A stretch of 64,000 nucleotides of DNA from an uncultured bacterium (lineage in GTDB: Bacteria; Hinthialibacterota; Hinthialibacteria; Hinthialibacterales; Hinthialibacteraceae), in assembly GCA_964556895.1 (NCBI GenBank), contig CAZKYC010000001.1, positions 29,371 through 93,370 of the forward strand, read 5' to 3'. How positions within the stretch are numbered: the first letter of the stretch is position 1; every line of letters begins with the position of its first letter. Position numbers and translations under genes: made by a program. Below, piece by piece: positions 32,100 to 52,796 of the stretch. The notes beneath the pieces were generated by a model that was not told where the DNA came from, did not search any database, and was given only the letters and a program-made list of their open reading frames with translations.

Positions 32100-32118
32100 A
32101 CCGGAAAGATCGTAAGCC

Positions 32119-33342: not shown

Positions 33343-33362
33343 TGTATTAGAGGAGACGTACA

Positions 33363-36871: not shown

Positions 36872-38274
36872 TTGGTTCGCCAACACCATCCTACAAATCT
36901 ATCGTCAGCATCGAATTTGGGCGCGAATCGGTCAAAGCGGTTTCAGCGGCCAAAAACGGGCGCGGGCTCAAGATCAAAAAGACGCTTGATTGCCCGATTG
37001 ACGCCTGCCTGCTTACAACCGACCCTGACGCGCTGGGCGAGGCCTTGCGCATGCGTATGACTGAGACGGGCATGTATGATGCGCATTGTATGGTCAGCGT
37101 CCCGCTGCAATGGGTGCTGAAACACCGCATCGAGGTCCCTGAATTGTCGCCGGACGATGTCGAGAGCTATATCCGCCTTCAAGCCGAGCGCGCGTTTCCC
37201 TTCCCGCTTGATGAACTATCGATATCAACCTCATGGTTTGAAGCCGCCGATGGAAAGCGCTATGCGTCGATCCATGCGGTGCGCCTGTCACAAATTGAAG
37301 CGCTGCGCGCGGTATGCAAAAAAGCCAAACTCACGCCGCTGAGTTTCACCATTGGCCAACCGTCTGAGTTTAACGGCCAAACAAGCGGCCACGCAGTGCA
37401 TTTACGGCAGCGCGACGACGGCGTCGATTGTCAGATCATTCACAACAACGAATTGATTGGCTTTCGCTTTTTTGAAGCCGACTGGTCAGAAGGCGCACAC
37501 AAAGGAATTCCATCGCTGTTTCGCGACATTCGCGTGACGCTTAGCGAATTGCCCCTGGCGCTGCAATCATCGTTTGGCGCCATCGTGGTTTGCGGCCCCA
37601 GAGAATGGGCAGACGCGTTCATACAAGCGGCGGGGCCTGCGGCGAGCTTGATGAACATGCGCCTGGAGACAGCGGCGCCAATATCGCCCAAGCCGATCAA
37701 CGTAAACGGCGACGCCTATTGGGTCGGCCCTATCTATCACACCGCCAACCAGTTTTATCTAAACCAGAAGTCGCAGGTTGAATTTCTACCGCCGAGGGTG
37801 AACCGCTTTAAACAATGGGCGTCAAAAATTTCTTCGCGCGGCAGCCTGGTCGCGGGCGCAAGCGCCACCGCGGTGATGGTTGTCGTCTGCGCCGCGTTCG
37901 TCTACCAGTATTACACTTGGTCGAGCCTCAATTCGCGCTGGCAATCCATCCGCGATCAGGTCGATGAAGTCAGCGTCATTCAAGACAACGTCAGGCTGTT
38001 TCGCCCCTGGTTTGACGAATCGCTGCCTGCGTTATCCAGCCTCCATACCTTGGTCGAGGCGTTCCCCGAAGCAGGCAGCATCTGGGTCCAAGTGGTTGAG
38101 ATTGACCAAAGCCGCCGCGTGTCATTCTCCGGCTTCGCCGAAGACAGCCACGCGCTGCTCATGCTTCACGAAACCTTGAAACAAGACGAGCGCGTCCAAT
38201 ACCTGACGGTCGAACAGATGTTGGGCGAGCCGCCGATAAAATTTGCATTCAACTTTCAATGGATAGGCAACTGA
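36850..38274 (+). CDS. GspL-like assembly protein, a fusion of a PilM-like actin-fold cytoplasmic domain, one TM segment and a PilN-like periplasmic domain.
   Basis: PilM-like N-terminus IVSIEFGRESVKAVSAAKNG. TM LVAGASATAVMVVVCAAFVY at about residue 340. Periplasmic C-terminus. An alternative GTG start at 36868, preceded by GGAAGGA, makes a GTGA overlap with the gspK stop. Confidence 0.65.
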   Translation: MEGTSVVIGSPTPSYKSIVSIEFGRESVKAVSAAKNGRGLKIKKTLDCPIDACLLTTDPDALGEALRMRMTETGMYDAHCMVSVPLQWVLKHRIEVPELSPDDVESYIRLQAERAFPFPLDELSISTSWFEAADGKRYASIHAVRLSQIEALRAVCKKAKLTPLSFTIGQPSEFNGQTSGHAVHLRQRDDGVDCQIIHNNELIGFRFFEADWSEGAHKGIPSLFRDIRVTLSELPLALQSSFGAIVVCGPREWADAFIQAAGPAASLMNMRLETAAPISPKPINVNGDAYWVGPIYHTANQFYLNQKSQVEFLPPRVNRFKQWASKISSRGSLVAGASATAVMVVVCAAFVYQYYTWSSLNSRWQSIRDQVDEVSVIQDNVRLFRPWFDESLPALSSLHTLVEAFPEAGSIWVQVVEIDQSRRVSFSGFAEDSHALLMLHETLKQDERVQYLTVEQMLGEPPIKFAFNFQWIGN

Positions 38275-38276
38275 CC

Positions 38277-38813
38277 ATGAATATCGAAAACCGGCAACGC
38301 AACCTGGTCATATTCGCCATCGCCTGTCTCGCCCTGCTCGCGGGCGACAAACTGGTGGCGACGCCGTTGATCGCCTATTGGCAAGACGCCGCCGAAGACA
38401 TCGAAGCGCTGCGCCTGTCGCTCGACGAGGGCGAGCTGTTGCTCTCGCGCGAAGACGCCCTGCGCCAGCGGTGGGGCCTGATGCAGCGAAACGCCATGCC
38501 CGAAAGCAAAGCCCAAGCCGAAAATCTGGTGTTAAACGCGGTCGACGAATGGGTCAACCAAAGCGGCGTCAATATTTTTTCATTCAAACCGCAATGGAAA
38601 GACCAGAGCGACGACCACTTCACCTTAGAGTGCCGTGCGTCGCTTCAGGGCGACATGGAGGCGATGGTCAAGTTTTTATACACCCTCGAAACCGACCCGC
38701 TCGCGCTCAACGTCGAAGACATCGACTTGACATCGCGCGACGAAAACGGCAATAACCTGGCGCTGACGGTGGTATTCAGTGGATTGCAATTCAAACCCGA
38801 TACGGACGAATAA
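38277..38813 (+). CDS. GspM/PilO-like bitopic assembly protein.
   Basis: A short cytoplasmic N-terminus, TM LVIFAIACLALLAG, then coiled-coil and a ferredoxin-like periplasmic domain. Its position in the operon supports the call. The ATG is 3 nt after the upstream stop. Confidence 0.6.
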   Translation: MNIENRQRNLVIFAIACLALLAGDKLVATPLIAYWQDAAEDIEALRLSLDEGELLLSREDALRQRWGLMQRNAMPESKAQAENLVLNAVDEWVNQSGVNIFSFKPQWKDQSDDHFTLECRASLQGDMEAMVKFLYTLETDPLALNVEDIDLTSRDENGNNLALTVVFSGLQFKPDTDE

Positions 38814-38814
38814 C

Positions 38815-39369
38815 ATGAACAAACGACAACTGAATCATATCCTTTGGCCTGCGTTGTGGATGATGGCAATACTTAGCCCCACAGCCCCTGGGCAAAGCCA
38901 AGAGGCGCGCCGCCCGTCAATTGAGTTGGACGCCTTTCGGCTCATCGTTGAACGCAACATCTTTGACCCCAGCCGCGAAAAGCCCGGAGGCGAAGCCCCT
39001 CCCATCGAGCGCGCCCCCCAGGCAGACGAAATCGTCTTAGTTGGAACCTTAGTCACCGAATCTCAACGTTTCGCCTTCTTTGACGGATCGTCTTCCAGCT
39101 ACCGCCGCGTGTTGACAGTCGGCGCAGACATCGCTGGCGGCGCCGTTGCGGCGATTGAGTCAGCGACCATCTCCATTCGTCTTGATGACAACACCTTTGA
39201 CCTGCCGATTGGCATGAGTCTAAGCAGAGAAGACGACCAGCCCTGGCGCATCGAAACCGTTAAGCGCCGCATAGAGCCTGAAAAAGAAGAAGACAACAAA
39301 CAACCGGCCCCCGCCAACGATATTCTACGAAAACTCATGGAACGACGCAGTCAGGAGCAAAATCAATGA
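38815..39369 (+). CDS. PilP/GspC-like periplasmic linker protein.
   Basis: Signal-anchor MNKRQLNHILWPALWMMAILSP. A Pro/Glu-rich linker. A C-terminal beta domain (VLVGTLVTESQRFAFFDGSSSSYRRV). It lies immediately upstream of the secretin genes. ATGA overlaps at both ends. Confidence 0.55.
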   Translation: MNKRQLNHILWPALWMMAILSPTAPGQSQEARRPSIELDAFRLIVERNIFDPSREKPGGEAPPIERAPQADEIVLVGTLVTESQRFAFFDGSSSSYRRVLTVGADIAGGAVAAIESATISIRLDDNTFDLPIGMSLSREDDQPWRIETVKRRIEPEKEEDNKQPAPANDILRKLMERRSQEQNQ

Positions 39370-40757
39370 AAGCCGTGCAAACCATCCTACTGATTTCTAC
39401 AATGATCTTCATCGCCCAGCCGTTGGTTGGCCAAGACCAACCCGCCAACGGCGACAATGAGATTCGCCTCAATTTTCGCGGGGCCAGCCTCGACGCCGTG
39501 CTCGATTATTTGAGTGAAGTTGCGGGGTATGTCATTGTCAAACAAACCGAAGTCGACGGCCAGATCGACGTGTGGAGCCGCCAGCCGCTCAACCAAGAAG
39601 AAGCCATCAACCTGCTCAACACGGTGCTTCACGAAAAAGGCTACGCCGCCTTACGAAACGGGCGCATCCTCACCGTGGTCGACCGCGACGACGCCCGAGA
39701 GAAAGACATCCCCGTCAAAATCGGCAACGAGCCGCGCGCGCTGCCCAAAACCGACGAGATGATCACTCAGATTATCCCGGTGCGTTACACCGACGCCATG
39801 GCGTTGATCGACAATTTATCGCCGCTCCTGCCTGAATACGCCGACCTGTCAGCCAATGAAAGCAGCAACGCGGTCATCATCACCGACACCCAGGCCAATG
39901 TTCGCCGCATGATGATGATTGTCCGCGCGCTCGACACCTCAATCTCAAGCATCTCGGCGATCAACGTCTATCGGCTGCAATACTCAGACGCGACTCAAAT
40001 CGCTGAGATCGTCAACGAACTGTTTGAAGTCGAAGACGATGACACCCGTGGACGCGGCGGCGGGCCGGGCGGGTTCTTTGGCCGCGGCGGGCGCGACGGC
40101 GGCAATGAGAATGAATCTGACAGCGAAGCGCGAAAGGCCGCCTCTCGCGTGGTTGCGGTCGCTGACGAAAACACCAACTCGCTCATCGTTAGCGCGCCCG
40201 AAGAATATATGTCCACCCTCACCGAACTCGTCGACAAAGTCGACCAGCCGGTCTCTGACATTACCGAGATCCAAGTGTTTCGCCTGGAATACGCCGACGC
40301 CTACGAAATGGCCGACCAGATCCAAGAGTTGTTCCCTGATGAATCGTCCCAAGAACAAACCACCTTGGCGCCGCGCTTCGGGCCAGGCGCGTTCTTTGGC
40401 CGCGACGGTGGACGAAACAACCAACAATCTGACGACAGCGAGCGCCAACTACAGCAAGCCACCGTGCGCAGCGTCGCCGACCCGCGCACAAACTCTGTTG
40501 TGGTGTTCGCCGCCCAAGAGACCATGGCCCAAATCGCCCAGATGGTTCAGCGGCTTGATTCAGACACATCGAAGAAACAGAAAGTGTTTGTCTACCGCCT
40601 CGAATACGCCGACGTCGACAACCTCGCCGAGATATTGCGCAACATCTTTGAATCTCAAAACACCAACATCAACCGAACCGCCGACACCAACCAAAACACG
40701 CTCTCAAACCGCCAAGTCAATTTAAACACAGCCGACAACGACCAGCCGTTTAACTAA
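39366..40757 (+). CDS. Secretin N-domain protein. It has a signal peptide, an N0-like domain and three secretin_N-type repeats, but no pore domain.
   Basis: Signal peptide MKAVQTILLISTMIFIAQPLVGQ. N0-like IRLNFRGASLDAVLDYLSEVAGYVIV. Three repeats of the form (I/V)xV(Y/F)RL(Q/E)Y(S/A)DA...(A/I)(E/D)I(V/L)...F, separated by Gly/Arg/Phe low-complexity linkers (GRGGGPGGFFGRGGRDGG; RFGPGAFFGRDGG). A real TAA stop at 40758. Confidence 0.75.
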   Translation: MKAVQTILLISTMIFIAQPLVGQDQPANGDNEIRLNFRGASLDAVLDYLSEVAGYVIVKQTEVDGQIDVWSRQPLNQEEAINLLNTVLHEKGYAALRNGRILTVVDRDDAREKDIPVKIGNEPRALPKTDEMITQIIPVRYTDAMALIDNLSPLLPEYADLSANESSNAVIITDTQANVRRMMMIVRALDTSISSISAINVYRLQYSDATQIAEIVNELFEVEDDDTRGRGGGPGGFFGRGGRDGGNENESDSEARKAASRVVAVADENTNSLIVSAPEEYMSTLTELVDKVDQPVSDITEIQVFRLEYADAYEMADQIQELFPDESSQEQTTLAPRFGPGAFFGRDGGRNNQQSDDSERQLQQATVRSVADPRTNSVVVFAAQETMAQIAQMVQRLDSDTSKKQKVFVYRLEYADVDNLAEILRNIFESQNTNINRTADTNQNTLSNRQVNLNTADNDQPFN

Positions 40758-40778
40758 ACCGGAGCCAAGGCCGAAACC

Positions 40779-41939
40779 ATGAAAACCAAACTGACCTCAT
40801 TCATCCTAATCACCCTACTTACAACGGCGACCGCCTTCGCCCAACGCGCGTTTAACTTCAACCAGACCCAAAACGCGTCAAGCGCTTCTGGAACGCAGCG
40901 CACCTACTATTCAAACGGCATGATCGGCGAAGCCATCATCGAAGCCGACCGCGACACGCGTTCAATCATCGTGATCGCCGACGACTACACCAACGAACAC
41001 ATCAAGCGAATCATCGAAAACCTCGACCGCCCCGTCCAACAGGTGTTGATCAAAGTGTTGTTCGTCGAAGTGACCTATCGCGATGATTATGACTTTGGCC
41101 TTGAAGGCGCCCTTGATCTCAACAACAGCCGCCCCGGCTCCAATGTGTTTGACACCGCCTTTGGCGTGGCCGCTGAGTCGGCGGGCGGGTTTTACCGCCT
41201 GCTTGAGAGCGACGTCAACGTAACCATCCGCGCCATTCAAGAAGTCGGCAAGACCGAAGTCTTGTCGCGCCCGTCGATTCTGACCCGAAACAATCAAGAA
41301 GCGGTCATCACAGTAGGGCAGGAAGTGCCCTTCATCACCAGCAGCCAGACCACCGAACAGGGCAACACCATCAACGTCATCCAATATGAAGACATCGGCA
41401 TCATCCTGCGAGTGACCCCCTTCATCACCAAAGACGGCCTGGTCGAGATGATTCTCGCCCCCGAAATTTCCACCATCACCGATGAAACCGTGCCCATTTC
41501 AGAGACCGTCAACTCGCCGGTGTTCGCGAAACGCTCAGCCGACACCGTGGTGGTGACCCCCAACGGCCAGACGGTGGTCATCGGCGGCATGATGGAAGAC
41601 AACAACATCGAAGTGGAAAACAAGGTCCCTATTTTGGGCGACATCCCACTGTTGGGCTCGATCTTTCGCCGCACTCAAAAAAACAACTCAAAAACCGAAC
41701 TGTTAATCTTTCTGACGCCCTATGTCATGGAAGGCCCCGAACGCCTAGTTGAGCGCACCGCCATCGAGCGCAATGAATCAGACCTGGTGCCGAAGGCGTT
41801 TACACCGGAACAAATCGAAAAATACTTCGACAGCCCCCAGCCCCAAAATGAGGGCGAGGCCAACGAAACCCAAAAAAGGGAACCCAACACGCCGCCCTCA
41901 CGCCCAAGACAATCAAACAGCAAAGGGCGGCCATACTAA
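40779..41939 (+). CDS. gspD: Secretin (GspD/PilQ family) pore subunit. It has its own signal peptide, a single N3-like domain and the secretin C-domain.
   Basis: Signal peptide MKTKLTSFILITLLTTATAFAQ. N3-like IIEADRDTRSIIVIADDYTNEHIKRIIENLD. Secretin domain VLSRPSILTRNNQEAVITVGQEVPFITS...VVIGGMMEDNNIEVENKVPILGDIPLLGSIFRRTQKNNSKTELLIFLTPYVM. Confidence 0.85.
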   Translation: MKTKLTSFILITLLTTATAFAQRAFNFNQTQNASSASGTQRTYYSNGMIGEAIIEADRDTRSIIVIADDYTNEHIKRIIENLDRPVQQVLIKVLFVEVTYRDDYDFGLEGALDLNNSRPGSNVFDTAFGVAAESAGGFYRLLESDVNVTIRAIQEVGKTEVLSRPSILTRNNQEAVITVGQEVPFITSSQTTEQGNTINVIQYEDIGIILRVTPFITKDGLVEMILAPEISTITDETVPISETVNSPVFAKRSADTVVVTPNGQTVVIGGMMEDNNIEVENKVPILGDIPLLGSIFRRTQKNNSKTELLIFLTPYVMEGPERLVERTAIERNESDLVPKAFTPEQIEKYFDSPQPQNEGEANETQKREPNTPPSRPRQSNSKGRPY

Positions 41940-43873: not shown

Positions 43874-44041
43874 GCATGGGTACAACTCTACTCGCTTCAG
43901 TGCGGCTCCGCCTTTTTGCACAGGCGCTCACAGAGTTGCACCCATGCCTGAGTTGGATTGTCTATTATTGAAAGGACGAATATCGTTTTTTGACCCAATT
44001 CCAGGTCATCCATCAAGGGAAATACTCAAATTTCGGATGAA
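43874..44041 (+). mobile_element. MITE-like repeat family 1, copy 1c. It is 5'-truncated: it has the core hairpin at 43878-43943 and the right arm but no left arm.
   Basis: It aligns with copy 1a from ggcatggg through aatttcggatgaa. Confidence 0.7.
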
Positions 44042-44062
44042 CCTGTATTTTGATATTTCTCC

Positions 44063-44644
44063 TTACTTCAAATACGCGTCTGGCGGCACATAGCCCGGGC
44101 GCACATCGCTCATATCGAGAATGCGACGCCCTACGCGGTAGCGGGCGCCGCCCATGTAATACAATAACAGTTCTTCGGGCTGCCAGCCGATCTGATCAAT
44201 CTGTTCATGCATGCCGACATATAAGACTTCCGCCGTGATCATCGGGCGCCCCATGCCTGGAATAATGTCTCTCACCCGACATTCGATTTGGGCCAGGCAT
44301 TCGGTAATCATGAGAGGCGTGACGGTTTTCGCCCGCGCAGTCGTTAAATTTAATATCCGTATTTTGTCGACGTCGCGCCCAGAATGGACGCCGCAAAAAT
44401 GAGCCTCTTTGACCAGCGACTCGCCCGCCACGCCTAAAATAAAATCGCCCGACTCTCTGACAAAATGATAACTCTGTGAACTGGGCTTTAACGAAATCGC
44501 CACCATGGGCGGGTCTAAACTAACAGGCATATACCACAAAACAGGCGAAACTGCGTTGAAACGACCCTTACGCGCAGAGAGCAAAAGCACCGGATGAGAA
44601 ACAATCAAGTTCGAAAAATCGCCTATCGGTTTAGAGATCATCAC
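44063..44644 (-). CDS. Flavin reductase-like (FMN-binding split-barrel) domain protein.
   Basis: 193 aa. LLLSARKGRFNAVSPVLWYMPVSLDPPMVAISL... matches the flavin_reduct fold pattern. Confidence 0.6.
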   Translation of the reverse strand: MMISKPIGDFSNLIVSHPVLLLSARKGRFNAVSPVLWYMPVSLDPPMVAISLKPSSQSYHFVRESGDFILGVAGESLVKEAHFCGVHSGRDVDKIRILNLTTARAKTVTPLMITECLAQIECRVRDIIPGMGRPMITAEVLYVGMHEQIDQIGWQPEELLLYYMGGARYRVGRRILDMSDVRPGYVPPDAYLK

Positions 44645-44806
44645 CCGGCCCTTTCTGCCAGCAACAAATAGCGATTCAGTAAATTATGCCCGAATGACCT
44701 CATTCGCCAAGTTGCACTTGCTACAATGCGCCTGATTCATTACAATCGTTCCACTGCCTATAAATCGGCATTTACACAAAACTAACTCGACTGACGACAA
44801 CGAATT

Positions 44807-46093
44807 GTGGATACGAACACCGTAACACTCACACGCTCTCCTTATGAGGTCCTCAAAGTCAACCCTTGGGCTGACATAGAGACCATCAAAGCCCAGTATT
44901 TTCACTTGGTGAAACAATACAATCCAGAATATTATCCCCAAGAATTTATTGAGATTCGTACGGCGTTTGACATTCTCAAAGAACCAGCCAGCCGCGCGGT
45001 CTCAGATATCGAAAACTTTTCGCCGCCGCCCTCGTTTAACCATAGCGATTATAAAGGGATGGACATTCACTCCATCTCTCTCTTCAAACTCAACCAAGAG
45101 ATGAAAACGCTCTGCGGCGAACGCGAATTACACCAACTTGAAGGCGCAGAAAAAGACAAGGCGCTTCACCTGCTTCACGGCGCAGCCCTCTACCAGTCAA
45201 TTCACGGACACATCGAAGAAGCCAAAGAGGTCTGGAGCAAGATTCTCCAACTCTACCCTGACGACGAAGAGTCAAAAAGCAACCTTACCTATACCACATG
45301 GCAAGAAGCCTTTGACCGGTTCTCTGACGGCCAATATGAGAAAGCCGAAACCGCCTTTACCCAACTCGCCGAGTCAGGCTTCACCAACGCCGCCATTTAT
45401 AAAAATATTGCCCTCGCCCAAGAAAAGCAGGGCAAAAAAGACGAAAGCCGCGACTCGTGGAAGCAGACGATTGACTCACTCAACCAAGAATTAAAGTCTG
45501 ACCCCGAAAATGATTATCTGAAGGCCTTGGTTATCGCCGCCCATAAATACACCGGCGGCTACCACCTTGAAAGCCACGAAAACGGCGAAGGCAGCGAAGA
45601 CAATATCACCGCCGGGTCGGCAAAAGAACTTGGCTACGCTTGCATCAAACAAGGCAACTGGCGCCAAGCGCTTGAAGCGCTCGAGCGCGCCCGCAAAGAC
45701 AACGAAAAAGACATCGATGTCTTATGCCAACTTGGATGGGCGTATCTCAATACAAATCAACATAAAATCGCGTTTCAAACCTGGAACCACGCGCTAAAAA
45801 TCGCCCCGTCTAAACAGGGTGTCATCGACCACCTGGTCAAAGGACACACCATTTTTGGAAAACGCCTCGTCGAACAACGTATCTTTAACCAGGCGCTGGT
45901 TCAATTCAAAAACGCATTAAAACACGAGCCAAATAACATCGAACTCAGACTGTTAGTAGGCGAAACCTTTTTTAATATGAAAAACTACACCTCCGCCTTG
46001 TCTGAATTTCAGCGAGTGATGGAGCACGAACCACGAAACAAGGTCGCCCGGCAGGGCGTGAGAGAGTGTAAACGTCTCGGAGGATTTCGATGA
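44807..46093 (+). CDS. J-like domain (HPD replaced by NPE) plus TPR-repeat protein, a putative Hsp70 co-chaperone-like adaptor.
   Basis: N-terminal roughly 65 aa: SPYEVLKVNPWADIETIKAQYFHLVKQYNPEYYPQEFIEIRTAFDILKEP. This has J-domain helix II/III spacing but reads KQYNPE where K.YHPD is expected. It is followed by at least 6 TPR-like repeats. GTG start. ATGA overlap with the downstream grpE-like gene. Confidence 0.65.
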   Translation: MDTNTVTLTRSPYEVLKVNPWADIETIKAQYFHLVKQYNPEYYPQEFIEIRTAFDILKEPASRAVSDIENFSPPPSFNHSDYKGMDIHSISLFKLNQEMKTLCGERELHQLEGAEKDKALHLLHGAALYQSIHGHIEEAKEVWSKILQLYPDDEESKSNLTYTTWQEAFDRFSDGQYEKAETAFTQLAESGFTNAAIYKNIALAQEKQGKKDESRDSWKQTIDSLNQELKSDPENDYLKALVIAAHKYTGGYHLESHENGEGSEDNITAGSAKELGYACIKQGNWRQALEALERARKDNEKDIDVLCQLGWAYLNTNQHKIAFQTWNHALKIAPSKQGVIDHLVKGHTIFGKRLVEQRIFNQALVQFKNALKHEPNNIELRLLVGETFFNMKNYTSALSEFQRVMEHEPRNKVARQGVRECKRLGGFR

Positions 46094-46632
46094 TTGGTTG
46101 GTTGACCCGGTCAACTCAACTCGATCCTCGAGACGTATTTCCAATCGACAATATGCCGATTGAGACGTATGGAGGAAAAGGGACCAGCGCAATCAGGCTG
46201 ATGTATAAAAAGACGCCTGCCTTGCCCGCTCCCGGCGATACGCGGCGCCTGGCCGCCAAAAACGGCCTGGACAAGAATAAAGAAGATTTTTTCCGCCGCA
46301 TTCTCCCAATACTAGATAGCTTTGACACAATCTTTAACTATGCAAAAAACAACCACTTAGAGAGCAATGAGACCATCACCAACTGGGTAAGAACGCTAGA
46401 ATCGCTCTATAGGCGATTGTTCTCGGCTCTAGAAAAAGAAGGCTTGGTTAAGATAGAATCGCAGGGGCGTCAACTCAACCTCTCAGTTCATGAGGTGGTT
46501 GAAACCCGTGAAGCGCCAGAAAAGCCTGACCAATTGATTTTAGAGGAATTACTGAAGGGGTATCAATACGGGAACCGGGTCTTACGCGACGCCAAAGTGG
46601 TCGTGGTTAAGAACCCTCGCGTTGAAGATTAA
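46090..46632 (+). CDS. GrpE-like nucleotide exchange factor, short form.
   Basis: ILPILDSFDTIF...LESLYRRLFSALEKEGLVKIESQGRQLNLSVHEVV...GYQYGNRVLRDAKVVV matches the GrpE coiled-coil and beta-sheet domain pattern. 180 aa. RBS GGAGGA. Confidence 0.65.
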   Translation: MIGWLTRSTQLDPRDVFPIDNMPIETYGGKGTSAIRLMYKKTPALPAPGDTRRLAAKNGLDKNKEDFFRRILPILDSFDTIFNYAKNNHLESNETITNWVRTLESLYRRLFSALEKEGLVKIESQGRQLNLSVHEVVETREAPEKPDQLILEELLKGYQYGNRVLRDAKVVVVKNPRVED

Positions 46633-46787
46633 ACCATTACACGCGTTCTTCTTCATGATATGTTATCATCGAAGATTGCGTCAATCGAAAAAAACTTGAT
46701 TGATCGGCCAGATTTAGACGACAAGTTCACTGAACTTATGATATATCTTGGCCATATACCGAACGCGCGCCGGAGGAAGCAGAATAG

Positions 46788-48542
46788 ATGGCTAGGATTT
46801 TAGGCATCGACCTTGGAACAACAAACTCCGTAGTTGCTTATATGGCGGGCGAAAAGCCCACCATTATTCCCAACGACCTAGGAGACCGGATTACACCGTC
46901 GATTGTTTACTACCAGGATGACGGTTCCGTCCTAGTCGGTAAAAAAGCCCGGCGGGCGGCGGGGATGAACCCTGACCGCTCAATCTTTTCAATTAAGCGT
47001 CATATGGGTACGGCTTATCGCGTCGACATCGACGACCTGAGCCACACCCCGCAAGAGATTTCGGCCTGCGTGTTGCAGAAATTGAAATCCGACGCCGAAG
47101 AGTTTCTTGGTGAAGAGTGCCCTCAAGCAGTCATCACCGTCCCGGCCTATTTTACGGATGCGCAACGCCAAGCGACCCGCGACGCGGGCGAAATCGCTGG
47201 ATTCACCGTACGCCGCATTATCGACGAACCGACCGCCGCGGCCATTTCGTATGGCCTCGAACGCGAAAACGACCAAATTCTCATGGTCTATGACCTTGGC
47301 GGCGGTACGTTTGACGTCTCGATCATTGAAATGGTCGAAGGCGTATTTCAGGTTCTCTCAATCAAAGGCAATAACCACCTCGGCGGCGACGACTTTGACC
47401 AACGCATCGTCGAAAACATGGTCGAACGCTTTAAAGAAAAAGAAGGCGTCGACCTGACCAATGACACCAAGGCCATGTTCCGCCTTCGCGAGGCGGCCCA
47501 AGAAGCCAAAATCGAACTCTCAGGCGTGACCAAGACTGAGATCATCGTCGAAGCCATCGCCATGACCGACCGCGGCCCGGTGACGCTCGCCGAAGAACTC
47601 ACCCGCGCCGAATTTGAGAGCCTAGTTCACGACCTGATCGACATGACCACCCAGCCAACCCTTGACGCCATTCAAGACGCCGGGCTGAAACCAGATGATA
47701 TTTCAAACATTCTTCTGGTTGGCGGCAGCACCCGCATCCCTTACGTTCAACAAACCGTGGCGAAGGTTGTCGCCAAAGAACCGCGCAAGGACGTCAGCCC
47801 TGACGAATGCGTCGCCTTGGGCGCCGCCGTTCAGGCGTCGATTTTGGCCCCGCTTGATGACGAATTACATCATTCAGCGGCTGACGCGGTCAACAAAGAC
47901 GGCCCGGTCATCGTTCACTTGACGCCGTTCTCACTGGGCGTCGGCTTAGCTGAAGACCGCTATGGCGTGTTGATCGAACGCAACTCGACCTACCCGACCG
48001 AAGCCAAAGACCTGTTTACCACGACGCGCGACTTCCAAGATGCGATCAGCTTCCCCATTTATGAGGGTGAAGAAAACATCGCCTCGGCCAACACCTTTTT
48101 AGACATGTTGCGCATTGATAAGATTCCGCCCGCACCGCGCGGCGTGCCGCGAATCGAAGTCACCTTCCGCCTCAACCAAGACCGTATTCTTGAAGCGACG
48201 GCGAAAGACCTCACCACCGACACCGAAGTCAGCATCACCGTTATGGCGACTGACAACCGCCTCAGCGACGACGAACGCAACGCACTGAAACAACAGACCC
48301 AAGAACGCGTCGCCCAACAAATGACCGCCCGCCAGCGACAAGACATGGCGAATGAGGTTGATAGTTTGGTCTTCCGCGCTAAGCGCGTGTTTGGCGAATC
48401 TGAAGACCCAATGGCTGAAGAAGCCATGCGCGTTCTCAGCGACCTCGAAGAAGCGCGGACCCAGTCGGATGAATCATCTGTACAAGAAAAAATGGGCCAG
48501 TTGAACGAAATGTTGGCCCGCTACGAAACAGCCGATTATTAA
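46788..48542 (+). CDS. Hsp70-family chaperone (DnaK paralog), C-terminally short form.
   Basis: ILGIDLGTTNSVVAY, DLGGGTFDVSIIE, IDEPTAAAISYGL and LVGGSTRIP are all present. 584 aa. The substrate-binding domain is present but the usual C-terminal lid/tail is shortened. Confidence 0.9.
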   Translation: MARILGIDLGTTNSVVAYMAGEKPTIIPNDLGDRITPSIVYYQDDGSVLVGKKARRAAGMNPDRSIFSIKRHMGTAYRVDIDDLSHTPQEISACVLQKLKSDAEEFLGEECPQAVITVPAYFTDAQRQATRDAGEIAGFTVRRIIDEPTAAAISYGLERENDQILMVYDLGGGTFDVSIIEMVEGVFQVLSIKGNNHLGGDDFDQRIVENMVERFKEKEGVDLTNDTKAMFRLREAAQEAKIELSGVTKTEIIVEAIAMTDRGPVTLAEELTRAEFESLVHDLIDMTTQPTLDAIQDAGLKPDDISNILLVGGSTRIPYVQQTVAKVVAKEPRKDVSPDECVALGAAVQASILAPLDDELHHSAADAVNKDGPVIVHLTPFSLGVGLAEDRYGVLIERNSTYPTEAKDLFTTTRDFQDAISFPIYEGEENIASANTFLDMLRIDKIPPAPRGVPRIEVTFRLNQDRILEATAKDLTTDTEVSITVMATDNRLSDDERNALKQQTQERVAQQMTARQRQDMANEVDSLVFRAKRVFGESEDPMAEEAMRVLSDLEEARTQSDESSVQEKMGQLNEMLARYETADY

Positions 48543-48579
48543 ACACGTTTAACTTGAATTACGCTTACTACCATTGATC

Positions 48580-48613
48580 CCAGACGGCCTCGCGCCGTCT
48601 GGTTTTTTGTTTT
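48580..48613 (+). terminator. Rho-independent terminator after the Hsp70 gene.
   Basis: ccagacggc-ctcgc-gccgtctgg followed by TTTTTTGTTTT. Confidence 0.85.
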
Positions 48614-48754
48614 CATGCTTATCTGCATGTAATTATTACCAGGAGGTTCGCCCTCCCCGTAATACCGAAAGCAAGTCAATATAAATTGAGCAGAGACGCG
48701 TTCAAGAAAGTGTAAGTTTGATTTCTAGAGCGTTTGTCAAAAAATGTGCGTAAA

Positions 48755-48836
48755 GCGCGCCCGTATCCGCCGCGGCGGACAGCGATAGATACAGTTACGT
48801 AAACTCAATCCGCACATAATTCTGGCAACCACTATA
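48755..48836 (+). repeat. Intergenic repeat family 2, copy c.
   Basis: gcgcgcccgtatccgccgcggcggacagcgatagatacag...caatccgcacataattctggcaaccac aligns with 1245-1321. Confidence 0.7.
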
Positions 48837-48986
48837 AAACTGAAAAAATGAATTGGTCAGCCTAACGAGACGTTTTGTCCAATCGTTATTTATAGATTGA
48901 AGGCGCATACCCTGCGATAAATCAGGGATTTCGCGATACAATAGTCAGCAACACCGGCTTTGAAAGCCTACCCAAGGAGATTTTGA

Positions 48987-50591
48987 ATGGACGCCATCCT
49001 TTGTCCAGAATGTGGCGCGAGCAACCCGGTTGAGGCGCAAGTTTGTGAAGAATGCAACGCTGACCTGTCAGCCGTCAAAAGCATAATCGATACCGCAAAC
49101 ACCCATTACAACGAAGCGCTCGCCCTCGCCCATAACGGCAAATTAGACGAAGCCCTCGGCCAAATCGAAGCCGCGTTGGCGTTGTCGTCAGAGAACCCCC
49201 AATTCCATAACTTAATGGGCACCATCTACGCCCAAAAAGGCCTGTACACCGAAGCCATGCGCGCCTGGGAACGTTGCATGGCGCTCGACCCGGAATTTGA
49301 AAAAGCCTACAAAAATATGGAAAAAGCCCGTCATATGGAAGAAGAAGCGGTCGAAGAAGAAGAACGCCGCCCCTACATCATGAAAACCTATATCGCCTAT
49401 GCGGCCGCGGCCTTGATGTTGGTTGTCACCATCTATTTTGGTTTTCGCCTCAATACCAAAAACCGAATGATTGACGACTATGCGGTACAATTGAGCGCCA
49501 AAGACCAGGCGATCAGCGCCCAAAAAGACCGCCTCAACAAAGCCGACGCCGAATTGAACGCCTATAAATCAAATTTCCCTGAGGGCGGCATTGAAGGCAT
49601 CCTGCAAAAAATGAGTCAATCTGAATCGCTGGCCGAAACCCGCGAAGCCCAGATTCGCCGGCTGACCGAGATGCGTAACAAAGAGCGCGACAGTTTTCGC
49701 GACCAGATCGCCGCGCTGCAGAAAGAAAAAGACGACCTGGTTCGTGAAACCCAAAAAATTAACGCCTTATCAACCGAAGTCAGGACCCGCGACGCAAAAG
49801 TTAACGCACTCCAAAAACAGCTGACCGATACCCAACACGCTCTCACGCTCGCCCAAGAGCAAGCGGAAACCTACCGCACCCAACTCGAAACCGAACAACA
49901 GAGCGCTCAACAGGCCCGTCTCACCCACGAAGACGAAATCAAAACCATTCGGCGCACCTACGACCAAAACATAGAAACCCTGCGCGAAGACAACCGAAAA
50001 CTGCGCGATGAAATCGCCGCGCTGCAACGCAGCATGGATGACTACAAATACGCCAACGAACTGGCGGTCCAAGCCCAAGAACAGTTGGAGCAAAACAACT
50101 ACCAATTGGCCCTGCAAAACGTCGACGCCGGGTTGAACCGCGCCAGCGGCCATGCCTTGTTGGTTTCCATGCAAGAAGCCATTCAAAAAATTCTCGACGA
50201 CCCGCTCGAACAAGCGCTTCGCCTCGAAGAAGCCCGAAACCGTGAAGAACAGATGCAGGCCAAACGCCAACAGTTAGCGTCTCGCTTGCTCAAAGACGCC
50301 AACACCAGCCTCTCGAACGGCAAACTCGACGAATCGGTCGAACTCGCCGAACAGGCGATGAAACTACTGCCCGACGATGAGCGCCAAATTGCCGATGCGC
50401 AAAAAGTCATCGACCGGGCGGAAGAGCAAAAAACCAAACTGCGCCTGATTTTACTTGAAGCCAAAGAGTCAATCACCGACAATAACCTGAGCGACGCTCG
50501 ACGCAAACTGCAACAAGCGATGAAACTCTCATCCTCACACCCCGAAGTCAAAGCGTTGGAGGCGCAACTCAACGAAAACCAGGAATCGTAA
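48987..50591 (+). CDS. Zinc-ribbon, TPR, single-TM and long coiled-coil protein.
   Basis: N-terminal CPECG...CEEC zinc ribbon. TPR-like repeats. TM YIAYAAAALMLVVTIYFGF. About 330 aa of heptad-rich coiled coil. Confidence 0.6.
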   Translation: MDAILCPECGASNPVEAQVCEECNADLSAVKSIIDTANTHYNEALALAHNGKLDEALGQIEAALALSSENPQFHNLMGTIYAQKGLYTEAMRAWERCMALDPEFEKAYKNMEKARHMEEEAVEEEERRPYIMKTYIAYAAAALMLVVTIYFGFRLNTKNRMIDDYAVQLSAKDQAISAQKDRLNKADAELNAYKSNFPEGGIEGILQKMSQSESLAETREAQIRRLTEMRNKERDSFRDQIAALQKEKDDLVRETQKINALSTEVRTRDAKVNALQKQLTDTQHALTLAQEQAETYRTQLETEQQSAQQARLTHEDEIKTIRRTYDQNIETLREDNRKLRDEIAALQRSMDDYKYANELAVQAQEQLEQNNYQLALQNVDAGLNRASGHALLVSMQEAIQKILDDPLEQALRLEEARNREEQMQAKRQQLASRLLKDANTSLSNGKLDESVELAEQAMKLLPDDERQIADAQKVIDRAEEQKTKLRLILLEAKESITDNNLSDARRKLQQAMKLSSSHPEVKALEAQLNENQES

Positions 50592-50655
50592 TCTTGTCGA
50601 TGCGCCTGAGTTTGCGATACTGTCAGCCGCATGGCGGCGTGGACGAGAGGAAGCG

Positions 50656-51441
50656 ATGCACCCAGATCGGATACGAGATGTATTAGAGCAAGTCAGCCAG
50701 GGCCAAGCGTCAGTTGACGACGCCTTGCTCTTGCTGCGCGATTTGCCCTACGAAGACCTTGGCTTCGCCAACATCGACCATCACCGCGCGCTTCGCCAAG
50801 GCCAGCCCGAAGTCGTGTTCGGCCAAAACAAAACCATCCAAGAGATTGTCGACATCGTCGGCGCGATTCGCGAGAAAAACATGCCCGTTCTGACTACACG
50901 CGCGTCAGAAGACGCGCTGGCGAAGTTAAAAGAAGCCTATCCGAATGGAACGCTGCACCAACGCGCCCGGGCGTTCACCGTCGGCGACGATGAAATCGGC
51001 GAGGCTGTCGGCAACGTCTTGGTCGTTTGCGCCGGGACCTCAGACCTGCCCGTCGCCGAAGAAGCCGCCCTCACCGCGCGCTTTACCGGCTCAAAGGTGA
51101 AACGCTTGTCAGACGTGGGCGTGGCGGGCATCCACCGCCTGTTAGGACGAATCGACGTCTTACGCAACGCCGATGTGATCGTGGTTGTCGCGGGCATGGA
51201 AGGCGCGCTGGCTAGCGTCGTCGGCGGCCTGGTCGACTGTCCGGTGATCGGCGCGCCCACCAGCGTCGGCTATGGCGCCAGTTTTGGCGGCGTGTCAGCG
51301 TTGTTGACCATGTTGAACAGCTGCAGCGCAGGCGTCACGGTCGTGAATATCGACAACGGCTTTGGCGCCGGGTTCGCCGCCAGCGTAATCAACAAAAAAA
51401 TTCACCATGCAAAAAAACACGCGAAGGAACCAGTCGGATGA
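50656..51441 (+). CDS. larB: LarB-like PurE-family enzyme, the nickel-pincer nucleotide cofactor biosynthesis carboxylase/hydrolase.
   Basis: N-terminal extension followed by a PurE-fold core (VVCAGTSDLPVAEEAA...VIVVVAGMEGALASVVGGLVDCPVIGAPTSVGYG...GVTVVNIDNGFGAG). This is the LarB length and architecture. Confidence 0.7.
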   Translation: MHPDRIRDVLEQVSQGQASVDDALLLLRDLPYEDLGFANIDHHRALRQGQPEVVFGQNKTIQEIVDIVGAIREKNMPVLTTRASEDALAKLKEAYPNGTLHQRARAFTVGDDEIGEAVGNVLVVCAGTSDLPVAEEAALTARFTGSKVKRLSDVGVAGIHRLLGRIDVLRNADVIVVVAGMEGALASVVGGLVDCPVIGAPTSVGYGASFGGVSALLTMLNSCSAGVTVVNIDNGFGAGFAASVINKKIHHAKKHAKEPVG

Positions 51442-52796
51442 CCCTCTCACGTTTGCGCGCTTGTTGTTTCATTGCGTTATCGCTGGGCATTTTGGCAGCG
51501 GCAATCGCGCCAACCTATGCGGATGTTGTCTTCTTAAAAGACGGCGCCAGGCTGCGCTGTGAACTGGTCTCTTCTGAAGAAGCCAACAACCCGACCAATG
51601 AGTACATCCAGATCCGGCTCAACCAATCAACGGTCTGGCTCAAGCGCGAAGCGGTGGAGCGCATCGAAGAAACCGACGCCGAACCTCCCTCCGAGCTCAA
51701 CAATGACGAACTCGTCAAACGCCTCATCGAAGTAGGCTATATCTTAAAAGAAGACAACTCGGCGCCCCCGACAACAGGCGATAGCGCCAGCGGCGACGCC
51801 ATGCGCCTCAGCGTAAAATCGGTTCGTGGATGGGCGTATGTGTCAGACACCCGGCGGGTCGATTCATCCCAAAACCGAGAGCCGCTCCAAGAGGGCCAAG
51901 AAATTCCTCTGGGGCGAATGATTCTGGTCTCAGGCAACTCGCGCGTCACCCTGAATATCGAAGAGATGGGCGAAATCGGGTTGATGCCCGGCGCCCATAT
52001 TCGCTTTGATCAATTGATCTGGGACCCGTCCGTTCAAAACTACCGCATCCACCTTCGCCTTGAGAACGGCGGCGTCTGGTTTAACATCGGCCAGGGCAAG
52101 TCTCAGTGGCGCCGCGTTATCTTAAGCGTCAACTCCGTCCAGACCATTCTTCAAACGGGTGTGTTGCTGGCTGAAGCGACCCAGATGAGCGGCGGCGCCA
52201 ATTTACATTACCTCGAAGGCTCCGCAGACCTGCGCTTTTGGCGGGGCAGCGACCCCTATTTAGTGCCCTCCGGGCAATCGCTTCGCGTGTCGCCCGACTC
52301 AAACAAACTCAATCTGCAAGAATTCGCCGGCGCCCAATCAAAACTGGCGGCAATCAAAGACTGGGACAATTGGCAGCCCGAACCACTGGGGTTGTCCTTT
52401 GACTTTCAACCGCCGCCGCTAAACCGCTTTCGCCTGTTTGGCCCGCTGCCTGCAATGTATCCACATAAAATCCCCATTGACTTGTCGATCGCGTTTCCGC
52501 CCATCGCCCAGGGCCTTGGCGAAGTGTTTACCGAATACAAAAAGGCCTTAGACCAATACAAGTTTGATACAGGAAAGTATCCCTCAGAAGAACTCGGCCT
52601 CGGCGCCTTACAACAGTCGTATGGCGTCCCTGGCTGGCAAGGCCCCTATCTAAAACCCAGCGTGCCCTTGCGTGACATGTGGGGCAGCCCCTTTGTCTAC
52701 GACTACTTCAAAGACGGCAATAAGGAGTACGTCAGCGTGCGCAGTTTTGGCCCCAACCAATACGACGACAATGGGCTGTTAGACGATTTGCGTTAA
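51438..52796 (+). CDS. Secreted protein with a FecR-like beta domain and a C-terminal GspG-like pseudopilin domain. It has no prepilin leader.
   Basis: Sec signal peptide MTLSRLRACCFIALSLGILAAAIAPTYA. The C-terminal 100 aa, YKFDTGKYPSEELGLGALQQSYGVPGWQGPYLKPSVPLRDMWGSPFVYDY...VRSFGPNQYDDNG, reproduce the GspG globular-domain signature. ATGA overlap with larB. Confidence 0.6.
   Translation: MTLSRLRACCFIALSLGILAAAIAPTYADVVFLKDGARLRCELVSSEEANNPTNEYIQIRLNQSTVWLKREAVERIEETDAEPPSELNNDELVKRLIEVGYILKEDNSAPPTTGDSASGDAMRLSVKSVRGWAYVSDTRRVDSSQNREPLQEGQEIPLGRMILVSGNSRVTLNIEEMGEIGLMPGAHIRFDQLIWDPSVQNYRIHLRLENGGVWFNIGQGKSQWRRVILSVNSVQTILQTGVLLAEATQMSGGANLHYLEGSADLRFWRGSDPYLVPSGQSLRVSPDSNKLNLQEFAGAQSKLAAIKDWDNWQPEPLGLSFDFQPPPLNRFRLFGPLPAMYPHKIPIDLSIAFPPIAQGLGEVFTEYKKALDQYKFDTGKYPSEELGLGALQQSYGVPGWQGPYLKPSVPLRDMWGSPFVYDYFKDGNKEYVSVRSFGPNQYDDNGLLDDLR

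What the first reader, a model, noticed from the sequence alone, without database searches (positions are those of the whole stretch)
44807..48542. Self-contained Hsp70 module in which the J-like partner has lost the HPD motif (NPE instead), followed by a short GrpE-like protein and a lid-shortened Hsp70.
Three co-directional, overlapping or tightly spaced genes. The first is a J-domain-like N-terminus reading KQYNPE, where the HPD tripeptide essential for stimulating Hsp70 ATPase should be, fused to a TPR array. The second is a 180-aa GrpE-like protein. The third is a 584-aa Hsp70 with all nucleotide-binding-domain signatures and a truncated C-terminal lid. A strong terminator follows. No canonical dnaJ or hrcA/CIRCE is present. 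This looks like a specialised Hsp70 system, with an HscA/HscC-type division of labour, whose co-chaperone tethers substrates through TPRs without triggering ATP hydrolysis in the canonical way.
Basis: partly seen in the sequence, partly recalled or inferred. Interest (0 to 1): 0.55.

Follow-up and report, generated by a model that had tools for sequence, protein, structure and literature searches.

The report
Rewired Hsp70 chaperone module without HPD
This is a conserved operon, found in several uncultured bacterial phyla, that encodes a specialised Hsp70 chaperone with its own exchange factor and a helper protein lacking the supposedly essential His-Pro-Asp motif; the Hsp70 carries matching changes at the site where that motif normally acts.

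Summary
The three genes are real. They are a J-like/TPR protein (44807-46093), a short GrpE (46090-46632) and a 584-aa Hsp70 (46788-48542), followed by a strong terminator. NPE in place of HPD is not a sequencing error. In about 50 loci from Hinthialibacterota, Sumerlaeota and other uncultured lineages the motif is [N/S/D/T/P]-P-E and never HPD. None of the 150 closest cluster representatives in a 1.84-billion-protein library has HPD. The partner Hsp70 is just as distinctive. All roughly 114 family members checked carry N170D, D393H and D477R/K (E. coli DnaK numbering) and an altered substrate pocket. All 120 canonical DnaKs checked keep N/D/D. The J-like domain has lost the basic residues (K26, R27, K48) that pair with the acidic Hsp70 residues lost here. 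In Sumerlaeota a canonical DnaK lies on the same contig as the trio, so there the trio Hsp70 is a paralogue. I could not show this for the window's own lineage. The "truncated lid" is wrong: the lid helices are present, and only the disordered tail and an NBD insert are missing. Best reading: a dedicated Hsp70 system, insulated from DnaK/DnaJ, with a co-evolved non-HPD J interface. Whether the J-like domain still triggers ATP hydrolysis is untested.

The parts
44063..44644 (-). Flavin-reductase-like gene, a divergent upstream neighbour
   Evidence: Pfam Flavin_Reduct 88.6 bits. The same neighbour occurs in most Hinthialibacterota-type loci and in no Sumerlaeota locus. It is probably context and not part of the module.
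44718..44746 (+). Sigma-70-like promoter candidate for the J-TPR/GrpE bicistron (TTGCTA-17-TACAAT)
   Evidence: Consensus scan, 9 of 12 matches; sequence checked. Not tested for conservation.
44807..46093 (+). J-like/TPR co-chaperone gene (428 aa, GTG start)
   Evidence: Pfam DnaJ plus many TPR families. 48 orthologues at 39-100% identity share the same N-terminus. AlphaFold pLDDT 88.
44837..45013 (+). J-like domain (residues 11-69; helices 12-16, 24-37, 44-58, 60-69)
   Evidence: Pfam PF00226 37.9 bits; four-helix J fold in the model. The basic residues of DnaJ helices II and III (K26, R27, K48) are replaced by F, H and I.
44921..44929 (+). N39-P40-E41, the tripeptide in the place of HPD
   Evidence: P40 and E41 are invariant in 34 orthologues. 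The motif is xPE in all loci of several phyla and in nearly all of 150 library representatives, none of which has HPD.
45143..46081 (+). TPR array (about 16 helices, residues 113-425), with a disordered loop at 256-265 and a conserved C-terminal R..RLGG.R
   Evidence: Pfam TPR families; model; Foldseek gives only generic TPR matches.
46090..46632 (+). Short GrpE-like nucleotide exchange factor (180 aa). Its start overlaps the J-TPR stop (ATGA).
   Evidence: Pfam GrpE 85.9 bits, covering profile positions 57-165 only. It aligns to E. coli GrpE 89-194 and G. kaustophilus GrpE 111-211, which are the four-helix bundle and beta domain; the long N-terminal helix is missing. The N-terminal motif FPI[DE]xxP is conserved. 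An overlap of -4 or -1 nt is conserved in both phyla.
46713..46742 (+). Internal promoter-like element upstream of hsp70 (GACGACAA...N...TATGAT), followed by the Shine-Dalgarno sequence GGAGGA
   Evidence: Consensus scan. A GCGACAAAA-N~15-GATAtAT block and the GGAGGA are conserved in 10 Hinthialibacterota intergenic regions.
46788..48542 (+). Divergent Hsp70 (584 aa)
   Evidence: Pfam HSP70 577 bits. The NCBIfam DnaK equivalogs score below their cut-offs (636.7 vs 648; 607.8 vs 822.55). More than 120 orthologue clusters of 580-587 aa were found. Identity to E. coli DnaK is 44%. 33 positions are fixed differently from canonical DnaK.
47223..47225 (+). D146, equivalent to E. coli DnaK N170, one helical turn from R167 (R143 here)
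   Evidence: D in 114 of 114 family members and N in 120 of 120 canonical DnaKs.
47904..47936 (+). Interdomain linker PVIVH377LTPFSL (canonical DVLLLDVTPLSL); H377 corresponds to D393
   Evidence: H in 114 of 114 family members and D in 120 of 120 canonical DnaKs. V389P, L390V and L397F are also fixed. D393 is the linker partner of R167 (PMC7289447).
48168..48170 (+). R461, equivalent to E. coli DnaK D477, the salt-bridge partner of J-domain K48
   Evidence: R or K in 112 of 114 family members and D in 120 of 120 canonical DnaKs. The J-like K48 equivalent is Ile. The contact is described in PMC8215388.
48522..48539 (+). Conserved C-terminal hexapeptide YETADY-COOH
   Evidence: [YML]E[TSA][AD][DE][YF] is the C-terminus of almost all Hinthialibacterota-type and 'Omnitrophica'-type family members. 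Sumerlaeota members end in ...LEAAG. Its role as a TPR ligand is an inference.
48580..48612 (+). Intrinsic terminator
   Evidence: 9-bp stem with 7 G-C pairs, 5-nt loop, then TTTTTTGTTT.
48987..50591 (+). Zn-ribbon / TPR / single transmembrane helix / long coiled-coil protein (534 aa), a conserved downstream neighbour and possible fourth component
   Evidence: Pfam zinc-ribbon and TPR hits. One hydrophobic segment at 131-155. The gene lies downstream of the Hsp70 in most Hinthialibacterota loci. In several Sumerlaeota loci and in L006, its N-terminal ~150 aa match a gene 55-83 nt after hsp70.

Best explanation
This is a dedicated Hsp70 system encoded as one module. It contains:
- a cytoplasmic J-like/TPR co-chaperone;
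- a GrpE-type exchange factor translationally coupled to it;
- a divergent but catalytically intact Hsp70 with its own promoter;
- probably a membrane-anchored Zn-ribbon/TPR/coiled-coil protein.

Shown:
- the module and its derived residues are conserved across at least two phyla;
- in Sumerlaeota it coexists with a canonical DnaK.

Inferred:
- The J-like domain still docks at the NBD/linker/SBD-beta junction of its own Hsp70, but through a remodelled interface. The electrostatic steering pairs are removed on both sides: K26, R27 and K48 of the J domain, and E217, D211 and D477 of the Hsp70.
- The His of HPD is dispensable. Pro-Glu is kept and faces a changed R167 network (N170D, D393H; D481 and Q378 kept).
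- This would make the pair orthogonal, so canonical DnaJ should not drive this Hsp70 and the J-like protein should not drive DnaK.
- The changed pocket (I401V, T403L, A429T, V436I, I438F) would restrict the clients.
- The dedicated GrpE implies DnaK-like slow ADP release, so the ATPase cycle is really used.
- The TPR array binds either a specific client or the conserved Hsp70 C-terminus (YETADY), as eukaryotic TPR co-chaperones bind EEVD.
For: Anatomy.

Conservation of xPE:
- P40 and E41 are invariant in 34 orthologues.
- The motif reads DPE in L004 (Sumerlaeia), SPE in L005 ('Omnitrophica'-labelled) and PPE in L006 (unnamed lineage).
- About 50 loci were checked and none has HPD.
- None of the 150 best representatives of 1.84 billion proteins has HPD (PPE 63, SPE 34, TPE 16, NPE 10).

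Synteny: the trio is present in about 47 of 53 loci with the same gene order and a conserved stop/start overlap.

Hsp70 derived characters:
- D170, H393 and R/K477 occur in essentially all 114-120 members, against N, D, D in 120 canonical DnaKs.
- The catalytic and allosteric residues K70, E171, P143, D148, R167, Q378, P419, D326 and N415 are kept.
- The fixed differences cluster in the linker, the J/SBD-beta interface and the substrate pocket.

Roles of these residues come from PMC8215388 and PMC7289447.

J-side loss of K26, R27 and K48.

Paralogy:
- L031 carries a canonical DnaK (RIINEPTAA, DVLLLDVTPLSLG) 2 kb from the trio.
- P0182 (canonical) and the trio lie on the same 519-kb contig.

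Other points:
- HPE is functional with HscC (PMC13254874).
- The GrpE core is retained.
- The C-terminal motif is conserved.
Against: - There is no biochemical evidence.
- In every system tested, changing H33 abolishes ATPase stimulation (PMC8215388). A non-stimulating J-like domain is therefore the default expectation.
- Position 33 varies within the family (N/S/D/T/P), so no single replacement residue takes over the role of His.
- The covariation is between clades and is confounded by phylogeny.
- A canonical DnaK could not be shown in the window's own lineage, Hinthialibacterota.
- AlphaFold gave low confidence for the SBD-beta, and no complex could be modelled.
- A few Sumerlaeota loci have the J-TPR gene without an adjacent GrpE or Hsp70.
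- The TPR ligand is a guess.
Confidence: 0.55

Rival explanations
1. Pseudo-JDP tether. The J-like domain only holds the TPR protein on the Hsp70, or does not bind it at all, and does not trigger hydrolysis. ATP turnover comes from the substrate and from a raised basal rate caused by the altered linker (D393H).
For: H33 replacements abolish stimulation in every system tested, and non-HPD JDPs are regarded as presumably non-functional (PMC8215388; PMC13254874). Altering R167 or its partners D393 and D481 disrupts interdomain communication, somewhat raises basal ATPase activity and makes stimulation by the JDP partner ineffective (PMC7289447). The residue at position 33 is not conserved within the family.
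Against: P and E of the loop are invariant across phyla, although a pure tether would not need them. R167, Q378 and P419, the receivers of the Pro and Asp of HPD, are all kept. A dedicated GrpE implies a regulated cycle.
Confidence: 0.27
2. In the window's lineage (Hinthialibacterota) this is simply the only, housekeeping Hsp70/GrpE system. It would have drifted as a unit, with a canonical DnaJ elsewhere or none at all.
For: No canonical DnaK from a Hinthialibacterota MAG was found. None of the top 120 relatives of the Sumerlaeota canonical DnaK carries an 'Omnitrophota' or 'Hinthialibacter' name or shares a contig with a Hinthialibacterota-type trio. Some orthologues are named DnaK by PGAP. 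The Hsp70 is highly conserved, at 57-92% identity.
Against: The same family, with the same derived residues, coexists with a canonical DnaK in Sumerlaeota. In a survey of 130 genomes, derived DnaK paralogues never occurred without a bona fide DnaK (PMC13580251). The substrate pocket is altered at five fixed positions. The search could list only 120 of more than 8000 DnaKs, so absence is not shown.
Confidence: 0.13
3. Pam16/Pam18-like regulator. The J-like domain pairs with, and controls, a genuine HPD J-protein encoded elsewhere, or it regulates GrpE. It would not touch the Hsp70 itself.
For: There is a precedent: the J-like protein Pam16 binds the J-domain of Pam18 (PMC13254874). The J-TPR and grpE genes are translationally coupled.
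Against: No HPD J-protein gene is part of the conserved neighbourhood in about 50 loci. The matched changes on the J-binding face of the Hsp70 are not explained by this model.
Confidence: 0.05

Closest known systems
E. coli HscC with DjlB/DjlC
   Same: A specialised, shorter Hsp70 paralogue encoded next to its own exclusive J-protein. The loop of that J-protein also ends in Pro-Glu (HPE). It lacks the NBD insert at residues 76-101 and has a changed substrate pocket. It coexists with DnaK (PMC8215388, PMC13254874).
   Different: DjlB and DjlC keep the His and are tail-anchored proteins without TPRs. HscC has no GrpE and lacks the GrpE-binding features. The Hsp70 here is far closer to DnaK (NCBIfam DnaK 636.7 bits; no HscC-type insertion in loop L1,2). 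D393H, N170D and D477R/K are not described for HscC.
Canonical DnaK-DnaJ-GrpE
   Same: The same three protein families and the same catalytic and allosteric core. Dependence on a GrpE-type exchange factor is inferred.
   Different: The J partner has no HPD, no G/F region, no zinc finger and no C-terminal client-binding domains. The linker reads PVIVHL and not DVLLLD. N170D, D477R/K and E217Q are present. GrpE lacks the long helix. The Hsp70 has no disordered tail. The scores fall below the DnaK equivalog cut-offs.
Type IV / pseudo-JDPs (J-like proteins without HPD, e.g. Pam16, DNAJB13)
   Same: A recognisable J fold with a non-conservative replacement in HPD (PMC13254874).
   Different: Here the variant motif is conserved across phyla, is encoded in an operon with an Hsp70 and a NEF, and is matched by changes in that Hsp70. 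Known examples are isolated and have no dedicated Hsp70.
Eukaryotic TPR J-proteins DNAJC7 (TPR2) and DNAJC3 (p58IPK)
   Same: A J domain combined with a TPR array. DNAJC7 needs a contact between its TPR and the Hsp70 C-terminal EEVD motif (PMC13254874). The Hsp70 here also has a conserved acidic/aromatic C-terminus.
   Different: The domain order is reversed: TPR then J in eukaryotes, J then TPR here. The eukaryotic proteins keep HPD. No sequence relationship beyond generic TPR was found.

Membership tests
J-domain proteins (JDP, Pfam PF00226) | Four-helix J fold recognised by the family profile | tested here: met
   PF00226 37.9 bits against a cut-off of 27.8. AlphaFold helices at 12-16, 24-37, 44-58 and 60-69.
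J-domain proteins (JDP, Pfam PF00226) | His-Pro-Asp in the loop between helices II and III | tested here: not met
   The window has NPE. Orthologues have [N/S/D/T/P]PE and never HPD.
J-domain proteins (JDP, Pfam PF00226) | Stimulates the ATPase of a partner Hsp70 | not testable with these tools
   This needs biochemistry. Only genomic linkage to an Hsp70 is shown.
Type IV / J-like (pseudo-JDP) | Clear J fold with a non-conservatively replaced HPD | tested here: met
   Definition from PMC13254874.
GrpE nucleotide exchange factors (PF01025) | Profile match over the four-helix bundle and the C-terminal beta domain | tested here: met
   85.9 bits against a cut-off of 25.8. Aligns to PDB 4ani residues 111-211 and 1dkg residues 89-194.
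GrpE nucleotide exchange factors (PF01025) | Long paired N-terminal helix (E. coli residues ~40-88) | tested here: not met
   Only profile positions 57-165 match. The N-terminal 64 aa are unrelated apart from a short conserved FPI[DE]xxP motif. All NCBIfam GrpE equivalogs score below their cut-offs.
DnaK (NCBIfam NF001413 / TIGR02350 equivalogs) | Score at or above the curated equivalog cut-off | tested here: not met
   636.7 against 648, and 607.8 against 822.55.
DnaK (NCBIfam NF001413 / TIGR02350 equivalogs) | Conserved linker D-V/L-L-L-L-D and the RIINEPTAA motif | tested here: not met
   The family has PVIVHL and RIIDEPTAA, invariant within it. All 120 canonical DnaKs checked have the canonical forms.
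Hsp70 superfamily (PF00012) | NBD, linker, SBD-beta and helical lid, with catalytic K70, E171, D194, T199 and D201 | tested here: met
   577 bits over profile positions 1-592 of 599. Invariant catalytic residues. Lid helices present.
HscA | Equivalog score; HscB partner; no GrpE | tested here: not met
   TIGR01991 scores 438.9 against 708.55. The partner is a J-TPR protein and a GrpE gene is present.
HscC | No GrpE dependence, tail-anchored HPE J partners, an L1,2 insertion and a helix B deletion | tested here: not met
   A dedicated GrpE is present. The J partner is soluble (no hydrophobic segment) and lacks the His. The alignment to DnaK shows no L1,2 insertion. No HscC profile was available in the libraries used.

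The most novel reading that the evidence does not exclude
This is a fourth class of prokaryotic Hsp70 machine, beside DnaK, HscA and HscC. Its J-domain trigger has been re-engineered by evolution. The histidine of HPD is given up, and an invariant histidine appears in the Hsp70 linker (D393H) next to a new acidic residue (N170D). The conserved Pro-Glu loop therefore still fires ATP hydrolysis, but only on its own Hsp70. The TPR array docks on the conserved C-terminal YETADY, a bacterial counterpart of EEVD recognition. The membrane Zn-ribbon/TPR/coiled-coil neighbour is the client or the anchor.
Probability: 0.25. Interest if true: 0.85.

Novelty: new variant of a known kind. Interest (0 to 1): 0.62.

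Why it matters
HPD is treated as the defining and indispensable feature of J-domains. [quoted passage not shown] This family offers a natural answer.

- The non-HPD loop is conserved across phyla.
- It is always encoded with its own Hsp70 and exchange factor.
- That Hsp70 is changed at the very residues known to read the J-domain signal: the R167 network, the linker D393, and D477.

This gives a ready-made orthogonal J/Hsp70 pair for testing the current two-step model of J-domain action, and perhaps for building insulated chaperone circuits. It would also extend the list of bacterial Hsp70 types beyond DnaK, HscA and HscC. The possible TPR/C-terminal-tail contact would be a bacterial parallel to EEVD recognition.

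Tried and rejected
Canonical DnaK in the window's own lineage: looked for and not found.
- Three homologue searches were run. The last used the Sumerlaeota canonical DnaK as query.
- I matched contig lengths between the hit lists.
- Four contig look-ups gave WGS prefixes that match none of the Hinthialibacterota MAGs: P0257, P0294, P0205 and P0277.
- Cluster-member names were not informative.
- The exact Hsp70 of the window is not on record.

Literature that gave nothing:
- The Hinthialibacter paper does not mention chaperones, and no supplements are held.
- No paper combines Sumerlaeota with DnaK.
- Barriot et al. 2020 is not held.
- Searches for a described J-like/TPR/GrpE/Hsp70 cluster found nothing relevant.

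Searches that gave nothing specific:
- Foldseek of the J-TPR model against the PDB returned only generic TPR proteins.
- Rfam found nothing above noise in 44000-51000.
- There is no CIRCE element.

Rejected readings:
- Sequencing error or pseudogene, because of conservation across phyla.
- HscA or HscC membership, on scores and the presence of GrpE.
- A truncated lid.

AlphaFold gave low confidence for the Hsp70 SBD-beta, so no structural argument is made about the pocket.

Full report
OBSERVATION

- ORF1 scores 37.9 bits on Pfam DnaJ (cut-off 27.8) at residues 12-65, followed by many TPR hits.
- ORF2 scores 85.9 bits on Pfam GrpE.
- ORF3 scores 577 bits on Pfam HSP70.
- ORF1 and ORF2 overlap by ATGA.
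- A 9-bp, 7-GC hairpin with a T-run follows ORF3 at 48580-48602.
- The tripeptide at the HPD position is N39-P40-E41.
- An AlphaFold model built on 34 orthologues (pLDDT 88) puts it in the loop between helices II (24-37) and III (44-58) of a four-helix J fold. About 16 TPR helices follow.
- The window holds no other Hsp70 and no DnaJ-like protein, and no CIRCE element.

One detail is wrong: the lid is not truncated.
- The alignment to E. coli DnaK runs to about residue 603.
- The model has lid helices at 494-535, 541-558 and 562-582.
- What is missing is the disordered tail and the NBD insert of about 24 residues that Gram-positive-type DnaKs also lack. About 12 residues are inserted before the linker.

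NOT AN ERROR, AND NOT LOCAL

A homologue search with ORF1 found 48 proteins at 39-100% identity. They come from MAGs named Candidatus Hinthialibacter or, by older labelling, 'Omnitrophota'. In an alignment of 34 of them, P40 and E41 are invariant and position 39 is N or S.

The most distant members sit in the same gene order: a flavin-reductase-like gene on the other strand, then J-TPR, GrpE, Hsp70 and a Zn-ribbon/TPR protein.

The Hsp70 has more than 120 orthologue clusters of 580-587 aa at 57-92% identity, including proteins labelled Sumerlaeota. Their neighbourhoods in three further lineages again show J-TPR, GrpE and Hsp70. The J-like loop reads DPE, SPE and PPE there.

A scan of one genome per GTDB species with a J-TPR alignment returned 47 loci. 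About half are Hinthialibacterota-type and half Sumerlaeota.
- The trio is intact in about 47 of the 53 loci examined (the six fetched earlier plus these 47).
- The loop is always [N/S/D/T/P]-P-E, with one DNE, and never HPD.
- The J-TPR stop overlaps the GrpE start by 4 or 1 nt in most loci of both phyla.

A search of 1.84 billion cluster representatives with the N-terminal 118 residues gave 333 hits at E<=1e-3. Of the best 150, none has HPD. The counts are PPE 63, SPE 34, TPE 16, NPE 10, DPE 4, RPE 4 and HPE 2. Several of these representatives share a contig length with a trio-type Hsp70.

THE HSP70 IS CHANGED WHERE THE J-DOMAIN ACTS

Background from the literature:
- H33 of DnaJ bonds the backbone of linker residue L391. 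P34 touches P419. D35 bonds R167 and Q378.
- The J-domain is steered by R22, K26, R27, K48 and K51 onto E206, D211, E217 and D477 (PMC8215388).
- R167 is held by D393 of the linker and D481 of the SBD-beta. The Asp of HPD competes for it (PMC7289447).

All trio-type Hsp70s checked read RR[ILV]IDEPTAA, V[IV][IV]H[LMVR]TPFSLG and EVxF[RK]. In E. coli numbering these are N170D, D393H and D477R/K. All 120 canonical DnaKs retrieved with a Sumerlaeota DnaK keep N, D and D.

A systematic comparison (114 against 120 sequences) finds 33 positions fixed differently. They fall in three places:
- the linker (V389P, L390V, D393H, L397F);
- the J/NBD/SBD-beta junction (N170D, T221I, D477R/K, D479N, G482R, and E217Q in 93%);
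- the substrate pocket (I401V, E402G, T403L, A429T, V436I, I438F).

K70, E171, P143, D148, R167, Q378, P419, D326 and N415 are all kept.

On the J side, R22 is K and K51 is R, but K26 is F/Y, R27 is H or variable, and K48 is I. The charge pairs have therefore gone from both partners, while the Pro-Glu and its receivers remain. The residue after H393 also tracks the x of xPE: N/S with L, D with M, P with V, and N/T in Sumerlaeales with R. This involves only a few clades and is confounded by phylogeny.

PARALOGUE OR SOLE HSP70?

- In locus L031 (a Sumerlaeota MAG) a second Hsp70 lies 2 kb from the trio. It is 62% identical to E. coli DnaK and has RIINEPTAA, DVLLLDVTPLSLG, TFDIDANG and the NBD insert.
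- The canonical DnaK P0182 lies at about 405 kb on contig JBMFRB010000001.1. The trio is at 272-285 kb on the same contig.
- A 13,110-bp contig length is shared by a canonical hit and a trio-type hit.

In Sumerlaeota the trio Hsp70 is therefore a paralogue. For Hinthialibacterota I could not find a canonical DnaK. The search lists only 120 of more than 8000 hits, so this is not evidence of absence, and the question stays open. A 2026 survey found no derived DnaK paralogue without a bona fide DnaK in 130 genomes (PMC13580251).

OTHER PARTS

- The GrpE-like protein aligns only to the four-helix bundle and beta domain of solved GrpEs. It lacks the long N-terminal helix but has a conserved N-terminal FPI[DE]xxP motif.
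- In Hinthialibacterota the gap between grpE and hsp70 is 54-328 nt. It holds a conserved promoter-like block and a strong Shine-Dalgarno sequence. In Sumerlaeota the genes abut.
- The Hsp70 C-terminus is conserved as [YML]E[TSA][AD][DE][YF]; the window has YETADY. Given the TPR partner, and the report that DNAJC7 needs a TPR-EEVD contact (PMC13254874), this tail is a candidate TPR ligand. That is an inference only.
- The downstream gene (48987-50591) encodes a zinc ribbon, TPRs, one hydrophobic helix (131-155) and a long coiled coil. It is a conserved neighbour in most Hinthialibacterota loci, in several Sumerlaeota loci and in L006.

COMPARISON AND NOVELTY

Reviews list three prokaryotic Hsp70 types: DnaK, HscA and HscC (PMC8215388). 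They state that HPE, found in DjlB and DjlC with HscC, is the only tolerated HPD variant, and that other variants are enigmatic (PMC13254874).

This module works most like HscC with DjlB/DjlC, as a private J/Hsp70 pair. It is not a member of that type. It has its own GrpE, a soluble TPR partner without the His, and a DnaK-like sequence that falls just under the DnaK equivalog cut-off.

I found no description of it in the literature held. Barriot et al. 2020 could not be read.

I rate it a new variant of a known kind. The main open points are whether the xPE loop still fires hydrolysis, what the TPRs bind, and whether the window's lineage also has a canonical DnaK.

Noticed in passing
window 46633-46787: The grpE-hsp70 spacer holds a promoter-like block (GCGACAAAA, about 15 nt, GATAtAT) and a GGAGGA Shine-Dalgarno sequence. 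Both are conserved in 10 Hinthialibacterota loci. The Hsp70 can probably be transcribed separately from the J-TPR/GrpE pair. In Sumerlaeota the spacer is absent.
   Followed up: partly
window 48987-50591: The gene for a zinc-ribbon/TPR/single-TM/long coiled-coil protein is a conserved downstream neighbour of the Hsp70 in most Hinthialibacterota loci, in several Sumerlaeota loci and in L006. It may be a membrane anchor or a client of the module.
   Followed up: partly
window 39366-40757 and 40779-41939: The secretin of a type II secretion / type IV pilus-like cluster (30435-41939) is split into two ORFs. One carries the N0/Secretin_N domains and the other the Secretin domain, 21 nt apart. This is either a real split or a frameshift or stop.
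   Followed up: no
L031 11374-13257 (-): A canonical DnaK lies only about 2 kb from the trio Hsp70 in one Sumerlaeota MAG. It carries the NBD insert and the canonical linker. This is the clearest direct evidence that the two Hsp70 types coexist.
   Followed up: yes
L039, L044, L054 (J-TPR at ~6001-7335): Three Sumerlaeota loci have a DPE-type J-TPR gene that is not followed by GrpE and Hsp70. In L044 the next gene is an M3 peptidase. These may be second copies or rearranged loci.
   Followed up: partly
window 46090-46280 (GrpE-like residues 1-64): The N-terminus of the short GrpE has a conserved FPI[DE]-N[LM]P motif in Hinthialibacterota and EF.[IV]DE.P in Sumerlaeota. It may be a pseudo-substrate segment for the Hsp70, like the N-terminal tail of E. 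coli GrpE (my recollection of the literature; not tested).
   Followed up: no
window 47850-48100 (Hsp70 residues 356-438): AlphaFold was confident for the NBD and the lid but gave pLDDT below 50 for the insertion, the linker and the first half of the SBD-beta. This is where most family-specific substitutions lie. It may only reflect the shallow 40-sequence alignment.
   Followed up: no
window 24001-26000: G+C drops to 0.41 against about 0.53 for the rest of the window.
   Followed up: no
window 50656-52796: A LarB/AIR-carboxylase-like gene (50656-51441) overlaps the start of a 452-aa protein that has a C-terminal T2SS protein G (pseudopilin) domain.
   Followed up: no
window 46788-48542: The exact Hsp70 sequence of the window is not on record in the gene-position index, although the J-TPR protein is (P0001, 100% identity, contig of 139,525 bp). 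The nearest Hsp70 cluster is 92% identical.
   Followed up: no
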